A stretch of DNA of 64,000 bases from Podarcis gaigeae (lineage: Eukaryota). Numbering within the stretch: the first letter of the stretch is position 1; each line of letters starts with the position of its first letter. The position numbers were made by a program, and so were the translations under genes. The notes under the pieces were generated by a model that saw only the letters and a list, made by a program, of their open reading frames with translations, did no database searches and was not told the DNA's origin. The DNA lies in NCBI GenBank assembly GCA_964106915.2, contig OZ066917.1; one strand, written 5' to 3'. Below are positions 22,232 to 64,000 of this stretch, one piece after another.

Positions 22232-23704
22232 TATCTATACTTAAGGGCCTTCAACAAGTCTTGTGAGATCAAGCAATGCTATAATAAAATGAGGTCAGCT
22301 AGGAATACATGGTCGAAATAATTAAGATCGTAAATTATTAGCCTACGTCTGATACATGGACAGTAAAGTAGTATCCCACAATTATTATTATTTATTTCAA
22401 CTTCAAAAAAGCCCTATTTTTAAAAATGGGCTCTTGCAGTATGGAGTTTCTGAGACAAATTGTGGGGGGTGGGGGCACAGTCATCAATGATGAAGGATTG
22501 AATTAGCTTCTCCCAGGCTTCAGTGGACTTGGTATCAAATTCAGGCAAAATGTTTCTTCCCCCGTGTGACTTCCTTCACCTCCCTCTCTTTGCCCTACTG
22601 TTTGAACAAAGCGGGAGAGCAAAAAGGGAGAGATCTGCCTTCACGCTCAAATTATAGGCAAAGAGGTGGGGACCCTTCATGAAATCCTCTCACCCCCATC
22701 ACACCCCTCCTTTTGAAGCCTGTTAAAAACAGTAGCTTAGCAGCCAACACAAAGAAATGGGGAGATGTTCCCCTTCTGCTTCCCCAGTAAGTCAAGTGCT
22801 GCCTTTTGTCAGGTTTTCCTAACAGCTTAAATTGTAACGCTTTGGCCTTCTGCTGAGGTGGCAAGGGGGAAATTTGCTATAGAGTCATGCTTAGCCGATT
22901 TAAGGCTCCCCACCCCCTTTCAGCAGAGTCTCCTGGGCTGGTGAGAGAATGGAGGAAAAAACAACTGTTGTAGCATTGCGGGTCCTCCCTCCTTTCCTTA
23001 AAGATCTTCACGTGCAAATAAATACATTTTGTTTTTGCCTGAAATCAATTAAGTTGAAGCTTAGCAGTGTTCACTGAGCAGAAAATCTTACCCAGTGGGT
23101 GAGCAGTCCAGCCTGCCACTCTCACCACCACAACTACTGCTAAGGAAACCCAGGTGCTCTAAATGTACTTCTTCAAAGCCTGGGAATCAAGATGCTGCTG
23201 AACGGTTTTACAGGTGTCACATCTTTATCTGAGGCTAACAACCAAGATGCAGAGATGATGGGTGTCCCACGACCACTTGTTCATCTATATAGGAAACCTC
23301 TAAAGATGCACATCACAAGATCTCAGAGGGCGTATGCAGGATCAAAATGTCCTATTCTGGCCAAAGGTTTATGCAAGAACGGGTGTTTTGAAAAGCTGTA
23401 TCTGCTGCTTGATAGGTTTAATTTTACAATACTGGGTATCATAGAGGCTGAGTCTTTTAAGATACCATGTACATCTTCACTAATGCTATTAGAATACTGT
23501 TTTGTATTGTCTGTTGATTACTACACATTGAGAGAGGGCAGACACACCCAAGGAGACAAGCCTAGTCTTTAAAAGCAACACATGTTCACCCACAAGTAAA
23601 CAGCATACTATCAGTATACCCCAGCCAGCTGTAAAAAATACAAAATAAAATTCCAACTTCTGTCTCCTTTGCTGGCTACTGCTGCTGAACTCATTCTCCT
23701 GGGC

Positions 23705-25332
23705 CAGGGGTCGGCAACCTGCGGCTCCGGAGCCGCATGCGGCTCTTTAACGCCTTTGCCGCGGCTCCGGGGTGGAGGCGAGGGGAGGAGGCGCATTTTC
23801 CTTTGTTCCCGCCCCAAGCCTCGCGCGCCCGAAGGGAGCTCCTGCCGGGCGCGCAAGGCTTGCAGACACTCGCCCGAAGCACGGGGAGCCCTCCGGAGGG
23901 CTCCCTGTGCTTTGGGCGGCAGGCTGCCGCCCCAAGCCTCGTGCGCCCGACGGGAGCTCCTGCCAGGCGCGCAAGGCTTGCAGACACTCGCCCGAAGCAC
24001 GGGGAGCCCTCCGGAGGGCTCCGCGTGCTTCGGGCAACAGGCTGCCGCCCCAAGCCTCGCGCGCCCGATGGGAGCTCCTGCCGGGCGCGCAAGGCTTGCA
24101 GACACTCGCCCGAAGCACGGGGAGCCCTCCGGAGGGCTCCCTGTGCTTCGGGCGGCAGGCTGCCGCCCCAAGCCTCGCGCGCCCGACGGGAGCTCCTGCC
24201 AGGCACGCAAGGCTTGCAGACACTCGCCCGAAGCACGGGGAGCCCTCCGGAGGGCTCCCTGTGCTTGGGGCGGCAGGCTGCCGCCCCAAGCCTCGCGCGC
24301 CCGACGGGAGCTCCTGCCGGGCGCGCAAGGCTTGCAGACACTCGCCCGAAGCACGGGGAGCCCTCCGGAGGGCTCCGCGTGCTTTGGGCGGCAGGCTGCC
24401 GCCCCAAGCCTCGCGCGCCCGACGGGAGCTCCTGCCGGGCGCGCAAGGCTTGCAGACACTCGCCCGAAGCACGGGGAGCCCTCCGGAGGGCTCCCTGTGC
24501 TTCGGGCAACAGGCTGCCGCCCCAAGCCTTGCGCGCCCGACGGGAGCTCCTGCCGGGCGCGCAAGGCTTGCAGACACTCGCCCGAAGCACGGGGAGCCCT
24601 CCGGAGGGCTCCCTGTGCTTCGGGCGGCAGGTTGCCGCCCCAAGCCTCGCGCGCCCGACGGGAGCTCCTGCCAGGTGCGCAAGGCTTGCAGACACTCGCC
24701 CGAAGCACGGGGAGCCCTCCGGAGGGCTCCGCGTGCTTCGGGCGGCAGGCTGCCGCCCCAAGCCTCGCGCGCCCGACGGGAGCTCCTGCCGGGCGCGCAA
24801 GGCTTGCAGACACTCGCCCGAAGCACGGGGAGCCCTCCGGAGGGCTCCCTGTGCTTCGGGCAACAGGCTGCCGCCCCAAGCCTTGCGCGCCCGACGGGAG
24901 CTCCTGCCGGGCGCGCAAGGCTTGCAGACACTCGCCTGAAGCACGGGGAGCCCTCCGGAGGGCTCCCTGTGCTTCGGGCAACAGGCTGCCGCCCCAACAG
25001 GCAGCCGCTGGCTGATTTGCTGCTATTGCTTTGCAATTTGCAGCTACTGTTTTGAAGGGGAGTGAAGAACACACACTCAAAAAAAGGTAACTTGTTAATA
25101 TAACGTTTATTTCTATGAGGAGGAGTAATTCTGAGGGGTCAAACAAAAAATAATTAAAAAGTGTCAAAAAAGTTATTTTTATAATGACGAGGATAACATT
25201 GGGCTAAGAAACAATGTATGCAGTGTTATATTTGTTTTAAATGTCGCAATGGTTTTGCGGCTCCCAGTTGTTGTTTTTTCTTCGGAAACGGGTCCAAGTG
25301 GCTCTTTTTGTCTTAAAGGTTGCAGACCCCTG
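23705..25332. mobile_element. Non-autonomous hAT-type DNA transposon carrying an internal minisatellite
   Basis: 16-bp TIR CAGGGGTC(G/T)GCAACCT with 1 mismatch, perfect 8-bp TSD TCCTGGGC (23697-23704 / 25333-25340), no transposase ORF. Confidence 0.92.
23809..24997. repeat. GC-rich tandem array, 10 x 118 bp, each unit holding two palindromes
   Basis: The anchor CCCCAA recurs every 118 nt (AA at 23816, 23934 ... 24996). Palindrome centres are GAGCTC and TCCGGA. Confidence 0.95.
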
Positions 25333-28300
25333 TCCTGGGCAGTAGCTAGTAGCCATCAGTCATCAAAAGCAACCAATGCTTATCTAAACTACACCTTCTG
25401 GCTATCAGTGCTCATTGAGCGAACATCTACAGAATCCTAGAGAAAAAGTCACCTCTGCAATTGACGGTCATAAAATACAGGGTCTGTGCATTTCAAGTGA
25501 AATATCCTGTGATGAGGATCAGTTATTAAATGATCCTCATTCATCACCCTAAGCAATACAGACCACAAATAGAAACATGTGCATTGGATAAAGCAGAGGT
25601 GGATTTAGGGGAGCACCACCGATTCAGTCACACTGGGCACAGAGCCTCAGGGGCTCTGCAACTATGATGTAGAACAGAAGGTGAGAGGTGGGGGGATCCG
25701 GATTTTGGAGCTGCACAGGGTGCCAGAGAAATTTGAGACACCCCCCCCCCAGGTCTGCCATTGCAGACAGGGGCTTACAGAACAAGCACTTCCAAGCACT
25801 GCCCTGATTTTTTAAAAAAATAAATAATGTAAATGATAAACATTTTCATCTTAAGAATTACAGAACAGATCCTGCTCCTTGTTCAAATGCAGTGGCTAAG
25901 CACCGGCTGTGTGTGCAAAATATCTGAAAGCTGCGAAGGAGAGGCAAACTGGCCTTGCTACTTGAAATGGAAAAGTGGGATTTGAAGTGGACAGGCTGGC
26001 ATTATTTCTGGCGCAGGAGTGCAGCAATTATCTCAGCTCCATCCCCTAATGAATGGCACAGCAGCTGCAGAGGCTTGAGGATTCCGCAGAGAGGCCAAGA
26101 CGGAAGCCACTCGAAGCATGGAAGCCGCCAGAATATCCTGAAAGCCGTATTTCATGCATTTGGATTTGTGGCAATTCTGCTCTGTGGGCTCAAAGCAGGT
26201 AAAACACTTTATGGATTTATTTATAACTTTTGTATGCCATCCCGTGACATAAATGTTCTCAGGATGGCTTACAGTAGATAAGTAAAAAATACAATGCAAT
26301 TTCGTTCCCAGGCGCATGGTGCCTGCAGCCGCTGTGGTGAGAGCCCAGGCATAGAAATAGACACAGGACATTGGTATTGGGTTGAAATAGGCCACAACTT
26401 TGATTGATTACAGATGTAAGTAGATTTTGCCCAAGGTATTAGGGATGTATCTGGTATCAAGCAACTCATCTGCTGGTTGATAAGTAGGGTTGGGTTGACT
26501 TTGACTGGGGGAGGGGATCCACCCCCTAACATGCACCAGGTGGTACGATCCCACCAGGGCCACCATTGGGAAGGGTGCTATTGACCCCATTGACCTGTGT
26601 ATGGATTGTTGGACAAAGACACACATTCCTGGACCCCTTTAACAGGGTACCTGATCACATAAATGTCCAACCCAATGCTATGAGATGGACAAAAGCCTGC
26701 AGACCAGCCAACTTGTTTGCAGGAGAAATTCTTCCCTAGCCCTGAATATGGTGACTGAATATACCATAGCAAATTCCTCACACTGCCCTGCCCACTTGCC
26801 TTTGAGCAGGAAACATACAGACTTGGTTGGTGGTTAATCCCATGGTGAACCCCTAAGAGCAAGGACCCCCAGATGTGGCCTTCAATTTATAGCACTGCAA
26901 CCCTGCACCCAATGTCCCCGGATTAGCCCATTCAAAGGGGCCTTTGCTGCCAAGGCTACTGTGGCTGGAGGAGGAGGAGGCGCTGAGGGTCCCACCCACA
27001 GCTGCGCATGAAGGAAAAATGGCCCCTGGTCCGGGCAGCGGCTGCGCTGAGCAGCAAACACTGCTTCCCCAGAACCGCAGATAAACAGAGACTGCAAAGT
27101 AAAATGTGAAAGCATTAAAAAAGGAGTGGGGAGCTACACAAATCCAACAGAATGGAACCTGACACTCCTCCGTATTAAAAACACAGATTAAAAAAGAACA
27201 ATCCCGAGAGGCTCAGGTTAGTTATTTTAAAGGCTTGAGTGAACTCCTGGCAGCAGGCAAGCTTTCCTGGGAAGGCTCTTCTATAAATGGGGTGCCACAT
27301 TGGCCTCTGGTTGGGGAGGTGGGAGTTGTAGTCCTGCAAGATCTGGAGGGACCACACTGGCTACCTCTGGTGTAAAGGGTTGTGCTGTTAGGGGATCTGG
27401 CTGTGTACGGGGCAATCTGGGCCCTGCAGAATTGTTGTGTAAACATCATTGCAGACACATGCTGTTTAAAGGGCTGCATCCTCTTCCTACACCCACAGGC
27501 CGCCTGCTGGCAATACCATATTGAGGTATGATTAAATGGCATTCAGAAATTCTGCTGAGCTCCTCGTGTTCTGCAGATATAGTTAATCCTCAAGGAATTT
27601 GTGAATGGAGTGTGCAAAATACATTTGACCTTTAAGTAAGCACTGATCGTATGTCTTGTTTTATGTTGTTGTTTTTTTAAATCACAATTTTCTACCCTGG
27701 CGACTGTAACTGTTACCTTGGCTGATTTTATATAACCCCACACTTTATTTCCCCCCTCTTCCTGCTTTTTGATTTTTCTGGTGAGTACAATTGAAAATGT
27801 CAGTGATGTAGCTCCAGTATCCTCCAGTAAGAGGAGGATTAGAGTTTTCCTGACAGAGAAGGGCAGAGGCGGGCGGGGATTACAACAGTGCATCTGACGT
27901 AAGAGAGGGCAGTTTATGATGCATCAGAGAGGATAACAATTATAGGAAAGCAGAAAAAGATGAGAAATGAATGGAATACATATTGCCAGGGAAAGCCAGC
28001 AATGTGTGTTGCAACAGTTTTTTCGGCAACCTCCCTGCTGTTCAGTGTTCTACACACGACTGAGCCCACCCTTATGCATTGCTACAGTGGAAGCAATACA
28101 CCTGATTTATGAAAGGAAGCCGGCTTTAGTAATTCAGTTACTCAGTTCTTAAGGCTTTGTGTTCCTCCCTCTGATGATATGTGGATAAATCTAGTTTTCC
28201 CTGCAGGATGCGGCATCGTACAACTGTAAGTTATCAAAAAAAGTATTTCAGGGTTTCTTTGTTTTTTTAAAAAAAAAATCTTATGAGCAAGAGGGTGATG

Positions 28301-40422: not shown

Positions 40423-40653
<231 letters not shown>

Positions 40654-62394: not shown

Positions 62395-63631
62395 CAGTGG
62401 TGCCTCGCAAGACGAAATTAATTCGTTCCGCAAGTCTTTTCGTCTTGCGAGTTTTTCGTCTTGCGAAGCACGGTTTCCCATAGGAATGCATTGAAAATCA
62501 ATCAATGTGTTCCTATGGAAACCGCCTTCAGACCAGGTCTGGGGACAGTCTGTCCCCCAACCTCTTCTGAAGGCCGGCGGGGGGGGGAAGTCTTTGCTTC
62601 CCCCTGCCTGCCTTCCCGGGACAGCGGAGACTTCTCCGCTGTCCCGGGGCGATTTTAAAATGCTGGCGGGCGGCAGCGAAGCCTTCGCTGCCGCACGCCA
62701 GCATTTTAAAATCGCCCCGGGACAGCGGATGAATTCTCCGCTGTCCCAGGGCGATTTAAAAGCCCCCGGGAAGGCAGGCAGGGGGGACAAAGACTTTTGC
62801 CCCCTGCCCGCCTTCAGAAGAGGTCCAGAGGGCTCCCCAAGCGGCGAATGTCTGCCCCGCGCGAGGGGCGCTCTGCTTAAGAGCACCCCTCGCGCGGGGC
62901 AGCAGGCTGCTATCCGCAGCCTAGGCGGGAACTCTTCTGAAGGCTGGCGGGGGAGAAGGGCTTTTCTTCCCACCGCCAGTCTTCAGAACAGCCTTCTGAA
63001 TGTTGGCGGTGGGGAGGAAAACCTTCCTCCCACCGCAAGTCTTCAAGACAGGTCCGGGAACAGAGTAGAAGCGCTGCGCACCTTCCCCTCTGTTCCCGGA
63101 CCTGTCCTGAAGGCTTGCGGTGGGAGGAGGGCTTTCCTCCCCACCGCCAACATTCAGAATGCTGTTCTGAATGTTGGCGGTGGGGAGGAAAAACCCTCCT
63201 CCCACCACAAGCCCCGGGAACAGAGGAGAAGCGCTGCGCACCTTCCCCTCTGTTCCCGGACCTGTCCTGAAGGCTTGCGGTGGGAGGAGGGCTTTCCTCC
63301 CCACCGCCAACATTCAGAATGCTGTTCTGAATGTTGGCGGTGGGGAGGAAAAACCCTCCTCCCACCGCAAGCCCCGGGAACAGAGGAGAAGCCCTTCGCG
63401 CCTTGTCCTCTGTTCCCGGACCTCCCACCGCAAGCCTTAGGACAGGTCCGGGAACAGAGGAGAAGGCGCGCTGCGCTTCCCCGCTGTCTCCGGAGATTTC
63501 CCTATGGGCTTTCGTCTTGCGAAGCAAGCCCATAGGGAAATTCGTCTTGCGAAGCCGCTAAAAAATCGGAAAACCCTTTCGTCTTGCGGGTTTTTCGTTT
63601 AGCGAGGCATTCGTCTTGCGGGGCACCACTG
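62395..63631. mobile_element. Non-autonomous Tc1/mariner-type DNA transposon with palindromic, tandemly repeated interior
   Basis: 22-bp TIR CAGTGGTGCC(T/C)CGCAAGACGAA, TA on both sides, repeated subterminal TTCGTCTTGCG, no transposase motifs. Confidence 0.9.
62935..63470. repeat. Internal tandem repeat, 160-bp period, about 3 units, hairpin-forming
   Basis: CAGAG(T/G)AGAAGC recurs at 63061, 63221 and 63381. Units fold around TTCAGAA-N5-TTCTGAA. Confidence 0.88.
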
Positions 63632-64000
63632 TACATTTCTTCTAATATGTCACTTTCTGCATGCAGTTTTGACCAATATATACATTCTGCAATGAGCTTA
63701 CCCTAATATTTTGGCATGTTATTTTGACAAATGTAGCATTTTTCTAACATCTCCACCCAATATATACATTTTTGAAAATTTTGTTTGATTGGAGAGTTAT
63801 TATCACAAAATTCAGAGAATGAAGCTTTGAACAGGGGGAGCTAAACATTTACCAGTTACTACCTTCTGCCTTGTTCAAGTCACTGTTGAAAGACTCAGCT
63901 GTTTGAAATTGGCAACCCCAGAAACAGGTTCAGTGTTTTTTAAGTTTTCCAAGTAGCGTTGCTATTCAGCGATGGTGAATCACTGAGGTAACATTTGTCC

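What the first reader, a model, noticed from the sequence alone, without database searches (positions are those of the whole stretch)
23705..25332. hAT element carrying a 10 x 118-bp double-hairpin minisatellite 14 kb upstream of SIK1
Seen: intact TIRs and a perfect 8-bp TSD enclose ten 118-bp units. Each unit has two spacerless imperfect palindromes: AAGCCTCGCGCGCCCG..GGAGCTCC..CGGGCGCGCAAGGCTT and CGCCCGAAGCAC..GGAGCCCTCCGGAGGGCTCC..GTGCTTCGGGCG. That gives twenty potential hairpins or cruciforms in 1.2 kb. Known: 8-bp TSDs define hAT elements, and TE interiors can seed satellites. Inference: a young mobile, CpG-island-like, structure-forming cassette that could be a nascent satellite, a VNTR or instability hotspot, a dsRNA or small-RNA source, or a methylation seed near SIK1 regulatory DNA. 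I do not know whether the family is described.
Basis: partly seen in the sequence, partly recalled or inferred. Interest (0 to 1): 0.7.

Follow-up and report, generated by a model that had tools for sequence, protein, structure and literature searches.

The report
Hairpin repeat that switched transposons
A young cut-and-paste transposon family in a lizard genome carries a hairpin-rich repeat that it likely took over from an unrelated smaller transposon, with 1 to 30 repeats in otherwise identical copies; the copy near the SIK1-type gene is likely one ordinary recent insertion with no shown effect on that gene.

Summary
Observation confirmed: 16-bp TIRs, 8-bp TSD, ten 118-bp double-palindrome units. 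The copy is not special. It is one of at least 131 dispersed copies; 96 of 97 examined have perfect TSDs, and the 96 array-bearing ones carry 1-30 units. Longer relatives show three layers: hAT ends, captured host intron DNA (Pack-TIR), and half of a TA-flanked Tc1/mariner-type MITE whose free copies already hold the 118-bp array. The array was thus likely born in one transposon and amplified by another. Cognate autonomous elements exist (11 of 14 fetched have an intact 644-aa Charlie/Buster-type ORF, 97% identical to an axolotl protein, so likely horizontally transferred). The site is empty in a related species and probably heterozygous in two samples of this one. CpG transitions run 7.5-fold high, which points to germ-line methylation, not a CpG island. 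No large free satellite, no Rfam family and no evidence for an effect on SIK1 were found. The scan earlier noted other Pack-hATs in this genome, but not this family. Verdict: a new variant of known repeat-carrying non-autonomous transposons (miDNA4, DTC84, Xstir). Its value is as a live, testable model of satellite birth.

The parts
23697..23704 (+). Left 8-bp target site duplication (centre TG; the family usually has TA)
23705..23800 (+). hAT left end: 16-bp TIR (23705-23720) plus subterminal region; 23707-23800 is 97% identical to autonomous copy L271
23809..24997 (+). Ten 118-bp units plus 9 bp; interior of a TA-flanked Tc1/mariner-type MITE, whose own ends are deleted in this subfamily
23816..23861 (.). 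Hairpin A of unit 1 (46 nt); also present without hairpin B in an 81-bp unit at the 3' end of long-subfamily arrays
23871..23918 (.). Hairpin B of unit 1 (48 nt)
25007..25050 (+). 44-bp relic of captured host intron DNA, identical to G000:C1:73592822-73592865
25046..25204 (+). Non-coding segment from upstream of the transposase ORF of the autonomous parent (parent 817-975, 97.5%)
25193..25332 (+). hAT right end with TIR (25317-25332), 93.5% identical to the autonomous parent
25333..25340 (+). Right 8-bp target site duplication
40453..40605 (+). First coding exon of the neighbouring SIK-family kinase (SIK1 by recall); context only, CpG-island promoter at about 38.0-40.0 kb

Best explanation
This is one copy of a dispersed non-autonomous hAT family with 1-30 internal 118-bp units; it is likely a recent insertion moved by an intact Charlie/Buster-type transposase elsewhere in the genome, and its array was likely inherited from a nested Tc1/mariner-type MITE. 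Inferred order: (1) the hAT captured two pieces of a host intron (Pack-TIR); (2) an array-bearing MITE inserted at a TA in that cargo; (3) deletions at short microhomologies removed the MITE ends and most cargo; (4) the transposase, acting in trans, spread the result. Transposition can carry the array unchanged (shown once). Unit number and order would change by slippage or template switching on hairpin-forming single strands, most likely during repair of excision gaps and by exchange between copies (inferred, about 0.55). Copies are likely methylated in the germ line and near-neutral passengers; an effect on SIK1 is not shown.
For: 131 exact copies of the first 50 bp. 96 of 97 examined have perfect TSDs, T at position 4 in 91 of 96 and A at 5 in 92 of 96. 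Of 47 short-subfamily copies, 39 have both ends identical to the majority yet 1-30 units, and 46 of 47 arrays are distinct. Long subfamilies keep one MITE end abutting a TA of the cargo. Free MITEs hold the same unit: 3 of 5 non-hAT places have both TIRs and TA flanks; units at 4 of those places are 88-96% identical to the hAT majority unit. Array-less hAT copy L041 matches one host locus in two pieces 1.57 kb apart (3-5% non-CpG substitutions). 13 of 14 fetched transposase loci have the same ends and a TSD pair, 11 of 14 an intact 644-aa ORF. The site is empty in organism B: a 1671-nt contig seen in both calls joins both flanks over one 8-bp target. L020 and L021 are identical 13-unit elements with different TSDs. 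C>T/G>A changes are 7.5x higher per site at CpG. The window array shares its first 5 units with L027 and its last 5 with L004 and L094, as exchange would give.
Against: No copy with both MITE ends inside the hAT was found (4 matches only), so step 2 is reconstructed. L051 and L059 share both flanks but differ by one full unit (1454 vs 1329 bp), so length may also change in place without transposition; they may be alleles or an assembly duplicate. Exact multi-unit block duplications are few: 4 of 47 arrays against a shuffled mean of 0.85, with 5 of 500 shuffles reaching 4. Deletions centred on a hairpin are rare among sub-unit indels, and the autonomous copies carry an equally variable non-palindromic 13-bp repeat, so hairpins may not be needed. 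Element ends differ from today's autonomous copies by 3-8%, whose first TIR bases also differ; mobilisation by them is not shown. Methylation is read only from mutation spectrum. Heterozygosity in this species rests on short junction contigs below the tool's 31-letter bridging rule.
Confidence: 0.8

Rival explanations
1. The insertion is a new cis-regulatory or epigenetic switch for SIK1, acting as a CpG-rich enhancer or a methylation seed.
For: 1.2 kb of 75% GC, CpG o/e 0.84 DNA about 14 kb upstream of the likely start; likely segregating, so an effect is testable.
Against: One of at least 131 dispersed copies; absent from the related species with a bridging contig, so not conserved. CpG decay points to methylation. 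By my rough estimate (20,000 genes assumed) about one random insertion in five lies within 14 kb upstream of a start. No functional data.
Confidence: 0.07
2. Array length changes in place, as an ordinary replication-slippage minisatellite, independent of transposition; the transposon only disperses it.
For: L051 and L059 share both flanks and differ by one full unit. L020 and L021 show a transposition with no change. Longer-array subfamilies vary more (SD about 5 units) than the short-array LM subfamily (SD 2).
Against: L032, L033 and L065 keep the same six-unit pattern across 8-10 substitutions in 1705 bp, while 46 of 47 short-subfamily arrays differ at 0.02% end divergence. The mosaic sharing of 5' and 3' unit blocks between unlinked copies fits exchange between loci.
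Confidence: 0.35
3. The array is a structured-RNA cassette (dsRNA, small-RNA or ribozyme source) that is maintained for its folding.
For: Strong folding, z = -7.3; ten units give twenty hairpins.
Against: No Rfam family reaches its gathering score among 59 matches at E<=1. Among 235 distinct units, changes that break symmetry outnumber those that restore it 443 to 99. Palindromic modules are a general trait of the donor MITE interiors.
Confidence: 0.08
4. The array length or the element is an assembly artefact.
For: Array length at this locus was not checked with long reads.
Against: Units carry ordered, shared variants (T67 in the last unit of 31 of 42 arrays versus 5 of 418 other units); lengths follow a 118-bp ladder over 97 loci with intact TSDs; junction contigs exist in public runs.
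Confidence: 0.02

Closest known systems
miDNA4 of Xenopus tropicalis (Scalvenzi and Pollet; seen only through review passages in PMC12628747 and PMC9659126)
   Same: Tc1/mariner MITE holding a satellite as one monomer or an array of variable copy number; matches the donor MITE here.
   Different: Here the array has moved into a second superfamily (hAT) that amplifies it; the unit is a GC-rich double palindrome; no large free satellite was found.
DTC84 of the clam Donax trunculus (PMC3879986, abstract read)
   Same: Non-autonomous element as cassette for internal tandem repeats, ordered unit variants, a palindrome in each unit proposed as length-change hotspot.
   Different: DTC84 has up to five units and an AA target; this has up to 30, an 8-bp target, a traced donor and intact candidate transposases.
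Multicopy animal Pack-TIRs, e.g. Pack-hAT-N8_XT and Ssk-FB4 (PMC8277862, abstract and section 9 read)
   Same: Host DNA between TIRs, spread by repeated transposition with distinct TSDs.
   Different: Cargo here is intronic and is mostly lost in the window's subfamily (44 bp left); copy number is in the hundreds rather than a few.
Charlie-related hAT-HT1/2/3 and SPIN families of Anolis carolinensis (PMC3014272, tables 1-2 read)
   Same: 8-bp TSD with central TA, 14-16-bp TIRs, non-autonomous copies outnumber autonomous ones, horizontal transfer.
   Different: No TIR in table 1 is identical to this one; no internal minisatellite was found in the passages searched.
Xstir/Xmix of Xenopus (Hikosaka and Kawahara; review passages in PMC12628747)
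   Same: Tandem repeat derived from a MITE interior, with stem-loops invoked in its amplification.
   Different: Xstir also forms free tandem arrays; here the arrays seen all lie inside transposons or their fragments.

Membership tests
hAT superfamily (non-autonomous) | 8-bp target site duplication | tested here: met
   96 of 97 copies; single target at the empty site
hAT superfamily (non-autonomous) | Short TIR beginning YARNG (PMC3014272) | tested here: met
   16-bp TIR, 15 of 16 matched, begins CAGGG
hAT superfamily (non-autonomous) | Cognate hAT transposase sharing the ends | tested here: met
   13 of 14 fetched loci share both ends with a TSD pair; PF05699 27 bits over cut-off 21.4. The window copy itself has no transposase
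Charlie/Buster branch of hAT | TA at TSD positions 4-5 (Anolis Charlie-related families; Buster rule recalled) | tested here: met
   T4 in 91 of 96, A5 in 92 of 96; the window copy has TG
Charlie/Buster branch of hAT | Single ORF of about 600-680 aa, 14-16-bp TIRs (PMC12637253) | tested here: met
   644 aa; relatives are named GTF2IRD2-like or FAM200C-like
Charlie/Buster branch of hAT | Placement in the Buster clade on a transposase tree | not tested
   No tree with named reference transposases was built
Pack-TIR | Host, non-transposon DNA between the TIRs with an identifiable donor locus | tested here: met
   L041 matches one CpG-island intron locus in two pieces; 44 bp remain in the window copy. 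Single-copy status rests on one search
Pack-TIR | Transcription or chimeric RNA | not testable with these tools
   No RNA holder listed
Tc1/mariner-type MITE (array donor) | TIRs with TA duplication, no coding capacity | tested here: met
   15 of 20 free places have a TIR pair, all 15 TA-flanked, 326-867 bp; 3 of 5 unit-bearing places likewise
Tc1/mariner-type MITE (array donor) | Cognate transposase and Tc2/pogo subgroup | not tested
   Subgroup is recalled from the TIR; no search made
Tandem-repeat-carrying MITE-like elements (miDNA4, DTC84) | Internal array of variable copy number with position-specific variants | tested here: met
   1-30 units; last-unit variant in 31 of 42 arrays versus 5 of 418 other units
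Satellite DNA proper | Long free arrays outside transposon ends | tested here: not met
   1285 exact hairpin-B motifs in the assembly; of the first 100 listed, 92 lie in hAT copies and 8 at five MITE or MITE-fragment places. Collapsed or unassembled arrays are not excluded
CpG island | GC above 50% and CpG o/e above 0.6 | tested here: met
   75% GC, o/e 0.84
CpG island | Unmethylated in the germ line | tested here: not met
   Proxy only: C>T/G>A 7.4 per CpG site versus 1.0 per other C/G site over 795 units; shared descent inflates counts
Known structured RNA or ribozyme repeat | Rfam match at gathering score | tested here: not met
   0 of 59 matches reach it

The most novel reading that the evidence does not exclude
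A satellite caught changing vehicles: a palindromic repeat assembled inside a mariner-type MITE was handed to a horizontally acquired, still active hAT, whose excision and gap repair rewrite array length and order at each round. That would make the family a live engine of minisatellite birth that can be rebuilt in cells, and its segregating insertions, including the one near SIK1, tunable methylation seeds.
Probability: 0.3. Interest if true: 0.65.

Novelty: new variant of a known kind. Interest (0 to 1): 0.4.

Why it matters
How tandem arrays arise and grow inside DNA transposons is argued mostly from old, dead elements. Here the donor MITE, the captured host locus, the deletion series, over a hundred near-identical carriers with 1-30 units, intact candidate transposases and empty sites are all present. 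That allows a direct test of whether transposition itself changes array length. The loci are also candidate length-polymorphic markers. The SIK1 link adds little unless allele-specific data show an effect.

Tried and rejected
Rfam scan: only sub-threshold hairpin matches. PF14291 search for the parent: none of 15 loci shared the ends; PF05699 then found it. PDB search with the transposase: 0 hits. Search for an intermediate with the whole MITE inside the hAT: not found among 4 matches. RNA: no RNA holder listed, which is no evidence on expression. Cruciform extrusion in duplex DNA was considered less likely than single-strand hairpins because both centres are GC-rich (established knowledge, not tested). 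A description of this family was not found in paper searches; Dfam and Repbase are not available here, so it may be catalogued there. PMC10162687 (passages; its one supplement file was cut when stored) did not show these TIRs or this lizard-amphibian transfer. Look-ups of earlier scan findings by sequence and by words returned nothing. The host donor gene was not identified.

Full report
Observation. The element runs 23705-25332 between two copies of TCCTGGGC, with 16-bp TIRs matching at 15 of 16. TRF finds 10.1 copies of 118 bp at 95%. Each unit has two near-perfect palindromes, with 3 of 23 and 1 of 24 symmetric pairs mismatched, and folds far better than shuffles (z = -7.3, 0 of 200). A SIK-family first coding exon lies at 40453-40605 (SIK1 by recall) behind a CpG-island promoter at about 38-40 kb. 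The genome is 1.51 Gb. A wall-lizard identity is taken from an earlier scan note and fits the Podarcis members of the transposase cluster.

Family. The first 50 bp occur exactly 131 times. Of the 100 places listed I examined 97 (17, 80 fetched; three on C21 were not fetched). 96 of 97 have a perfect 8-bp TSD, with T at position 4 in 91 and A at 5 in 92 of 96. One copy (L041) has no array; the others have 1-30 units. Hairpin B occurs a median of 7 times per element, and 23 of 97 have more than ten, so the window copy is unremarkable. By junctions the 97 fall into Ss 38 (the window's type), LM 35, DM 11, SM 9 and 4 unassigned. Adding 11 best-scoring loci gives 108 elements and 47 Ss. Their last 280 bp differ from the majority by 0.02% in Ss and up to 0.45% in DM; 39 of 47 Ss copies have both ends identical to the majority and still range from 1 to 30 units. 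46 of 47 Ss arrays are distinct.

Origin of the array. LM copies keep about 270 bp of extra GC-rich DNA on the left and, on the right, further palindromic modules ending in a TIR that abuts a TA. A motif from that piece has 1088 strand hits. Its first 30 loci are 23 places: 3 in hAT copies and 20 free, of which 15 show a TIR pair, all TA-flanked, with varied interiors built from palindromic modules. This is a Tc1/mariner-type MITE family; related TA-flanked TcMar families are tabulated for Anolis (PMC3014272), and the Tc2/pogo label is recalled. The hairpin-B motif occurs 1285 times. Of the first 100 hits, 8 lie at five places outside hAT copies; three are complete TA-flanked MITEs of 807-854 bp with several units and two show one TIR. 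Units from four of these places are 88-96% identical to the hAT majority unit. The array therefore exists in the MITE itself, and the more diverged MITE units suggest it is the donor (inference). 131 copies at 7.3 exact motifs each give about 950; copies with a mismatched left end (such as L129, L132, L137, L140) and free MITEs can explain the rest, which leaves no room for a large assembled free satellite.

Captured host DNA. The interior of array-less L041 matches only itself, one twin and two pieces of one locus 1.57 kb apart. That locus is a CpG island just downstream of an ATG exon with a signal-peptide-like frame and a GT donor, so the pieces are likely intron 1 (gene unidentified). Non-CpG divergence is 3.3-4.7%, and 13 of 35 substitutions in the CpG-rich piece are CpG decay on the transposon side against 3 on the host side. 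This is the multicopy Pack-TIR pattern (PMC8277862, abstract and section 9). The MITE end sits at a TA inside the second piece; a deletion at a short shared motif joins the first piece to the array, and further deletions give the window's subfamily, which keeps 44 host bases. No copy with both MITE ends in place was found.

Motor. A PF05699 search led to 14 fetched loci: 13 have the same ends within a TSD pair (3.6-5.7 kb), 11 an intact 644-aa ORF differing by up to 25 of 1935 nt, and 3 are frameshifted. The window's ends are 93.5-97.5% identical to one of them. Length and TIRs fit Buster elements (PMC12637253, passages). The protein is 97% identical over 644 aa to an axolotl protein, 93-97% to frog, 93% to a bat fragment and 91% to an agamid fragment, but 81-84% to skink, viper, monitor and gecko proteins. 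Horizontal transfer is the likely reading; no nucleotide test was made. Mobilisation of the array family by this enzyme is inferred from shared ends and target preference.

Age at this locus. In organism B a contig of 1671 nt and depth 7.97, seen in both calls and taken to be one record, covers 23088-23704 and 25333-26200 with an 8-base overlap: the empty site. In this species, X2 has a filled-junction contig at depth 7.4 and a contig that leaves the reference at 25333 at depth 7.1; X1 has the filled junction at 49.5 against 90.9 in the flank. Both suggest heterozygosity, but the junction contigs have fewer than 31 letters on the element side, X1 may be the assembly's own sample, and the five runs come from two studies.

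How length changes. Transposition can leave the array intact (L020 and L021: identical 1972 bp, different TSDs). One site may differ in place (L051 and L059, one unit). Three LM copies keep one six-unit pattern over 8-10 substitutions, whereas Ss arrays are nearly all unique at near-zero end divergence. The last unit is stereotyped (31 of 42 versus 5 of 418), 4 of 47 arrays show exact block duplications (5 of 500 shuffles reach that), and the window array shares its 5' five units with one copy and its 3' five with two others. I read this as slippage and template switching on hairpin-prone single strands, probably in gap repair after excision (about 0.55), with plain in-place slippage as the main rival. 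Against a special role for hairpins, hairpin-centred deletions are rare and sister and autonomous copies carry a 13-bp non-palindromic repeat of 14-75 copies.

Function. C>T/G>A changes are 7.5 times more frequent per site at CpG than at other C/G sites (795 units, 12 common variant sites left out), which points to germ-line methylation. No Rfam family reaches threshold. Nothing here ties the copy to SIK1 control.

Comparison and verdict. Repeat-carrying non-autonomous transposons are known: miDNA4 and Xstir (review passages, PMC12628747 and PMC9659126) and DTC84 (abstract, PMC3879986). Nine paper searches did not show this family; Dfam and Repbase could not be queried. What is distinctive is the traced hand-over of an array from a mariner-type MITE to a Pack-hAT with intact transposases and likely segregating insertions. 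New variant of a known kind; interest 0.4.

Noticed in passing
L260-L273 (e.g. L262:3809-5743): Autonomous hAT with a 644-aa transposase 97% identical to axolotl, 93-97% to frog and 93% to a bat fragment but 81-84% to several other squamates: likely recent horizontal transfer among lizards, amphibians and bats, not seen in the papers searched.
   Followed up: partly
L180-L213, L261-L268: Sister and autonomous copies carry a second, purine-rich 13-bp tandem repeat (14-75 copies) grown from the element's own left subterminal region.
   Followed up: partly
L184, L205: Sister copies with the same left end hold other CpG-rich interiors that look like captured promoter DNA; possibly the CENPW-carrying family of an earlier scan note (not checked).
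   Followed up: no
L214:4405-4458 (G000:C1:73590404): Host donor gene: CpG-island first exon encoding a signal-peptide-like 18 residues; gene not identified.
   Followed up: partly
L145-L179: A large TA-flanked MITE family whose interiors are mosaics of different GC-rich palindromic modules, several locally tandem-duplicated; a general nursery of minisatellites.
   Followed up: partly
window 62500-63660: Another GC-rich element with palindromic modules and 49-bp and 160-bp internal repeats, ending in a Tigger-like terminus (label recalled); one module resembles those of the donor MITE.
   Followed up: no
L051, L059, L060, L061: The same insertion site occurs on C3 and on two small contigs (C4, C5) with 4 or 3 full units; alleles, haplotigs or a segmental duplication.
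   Followed up: partly
G000:C25:5801646-5805999: Two array-bearing copies lie back to back in opposite orientation about 0.6 kb apart, a possible local hop.
   Followed up: no
L210; L262:37-1549: A reverse-transcriptase-like fragment (read by eye) is inserted in one sister copy, and one autonomous copy interrupts a LINE-like ORF.
   Followed up: no
window 25580-25760: A short dispersed repeat in the right flank (raised depth).
   Followed up: no
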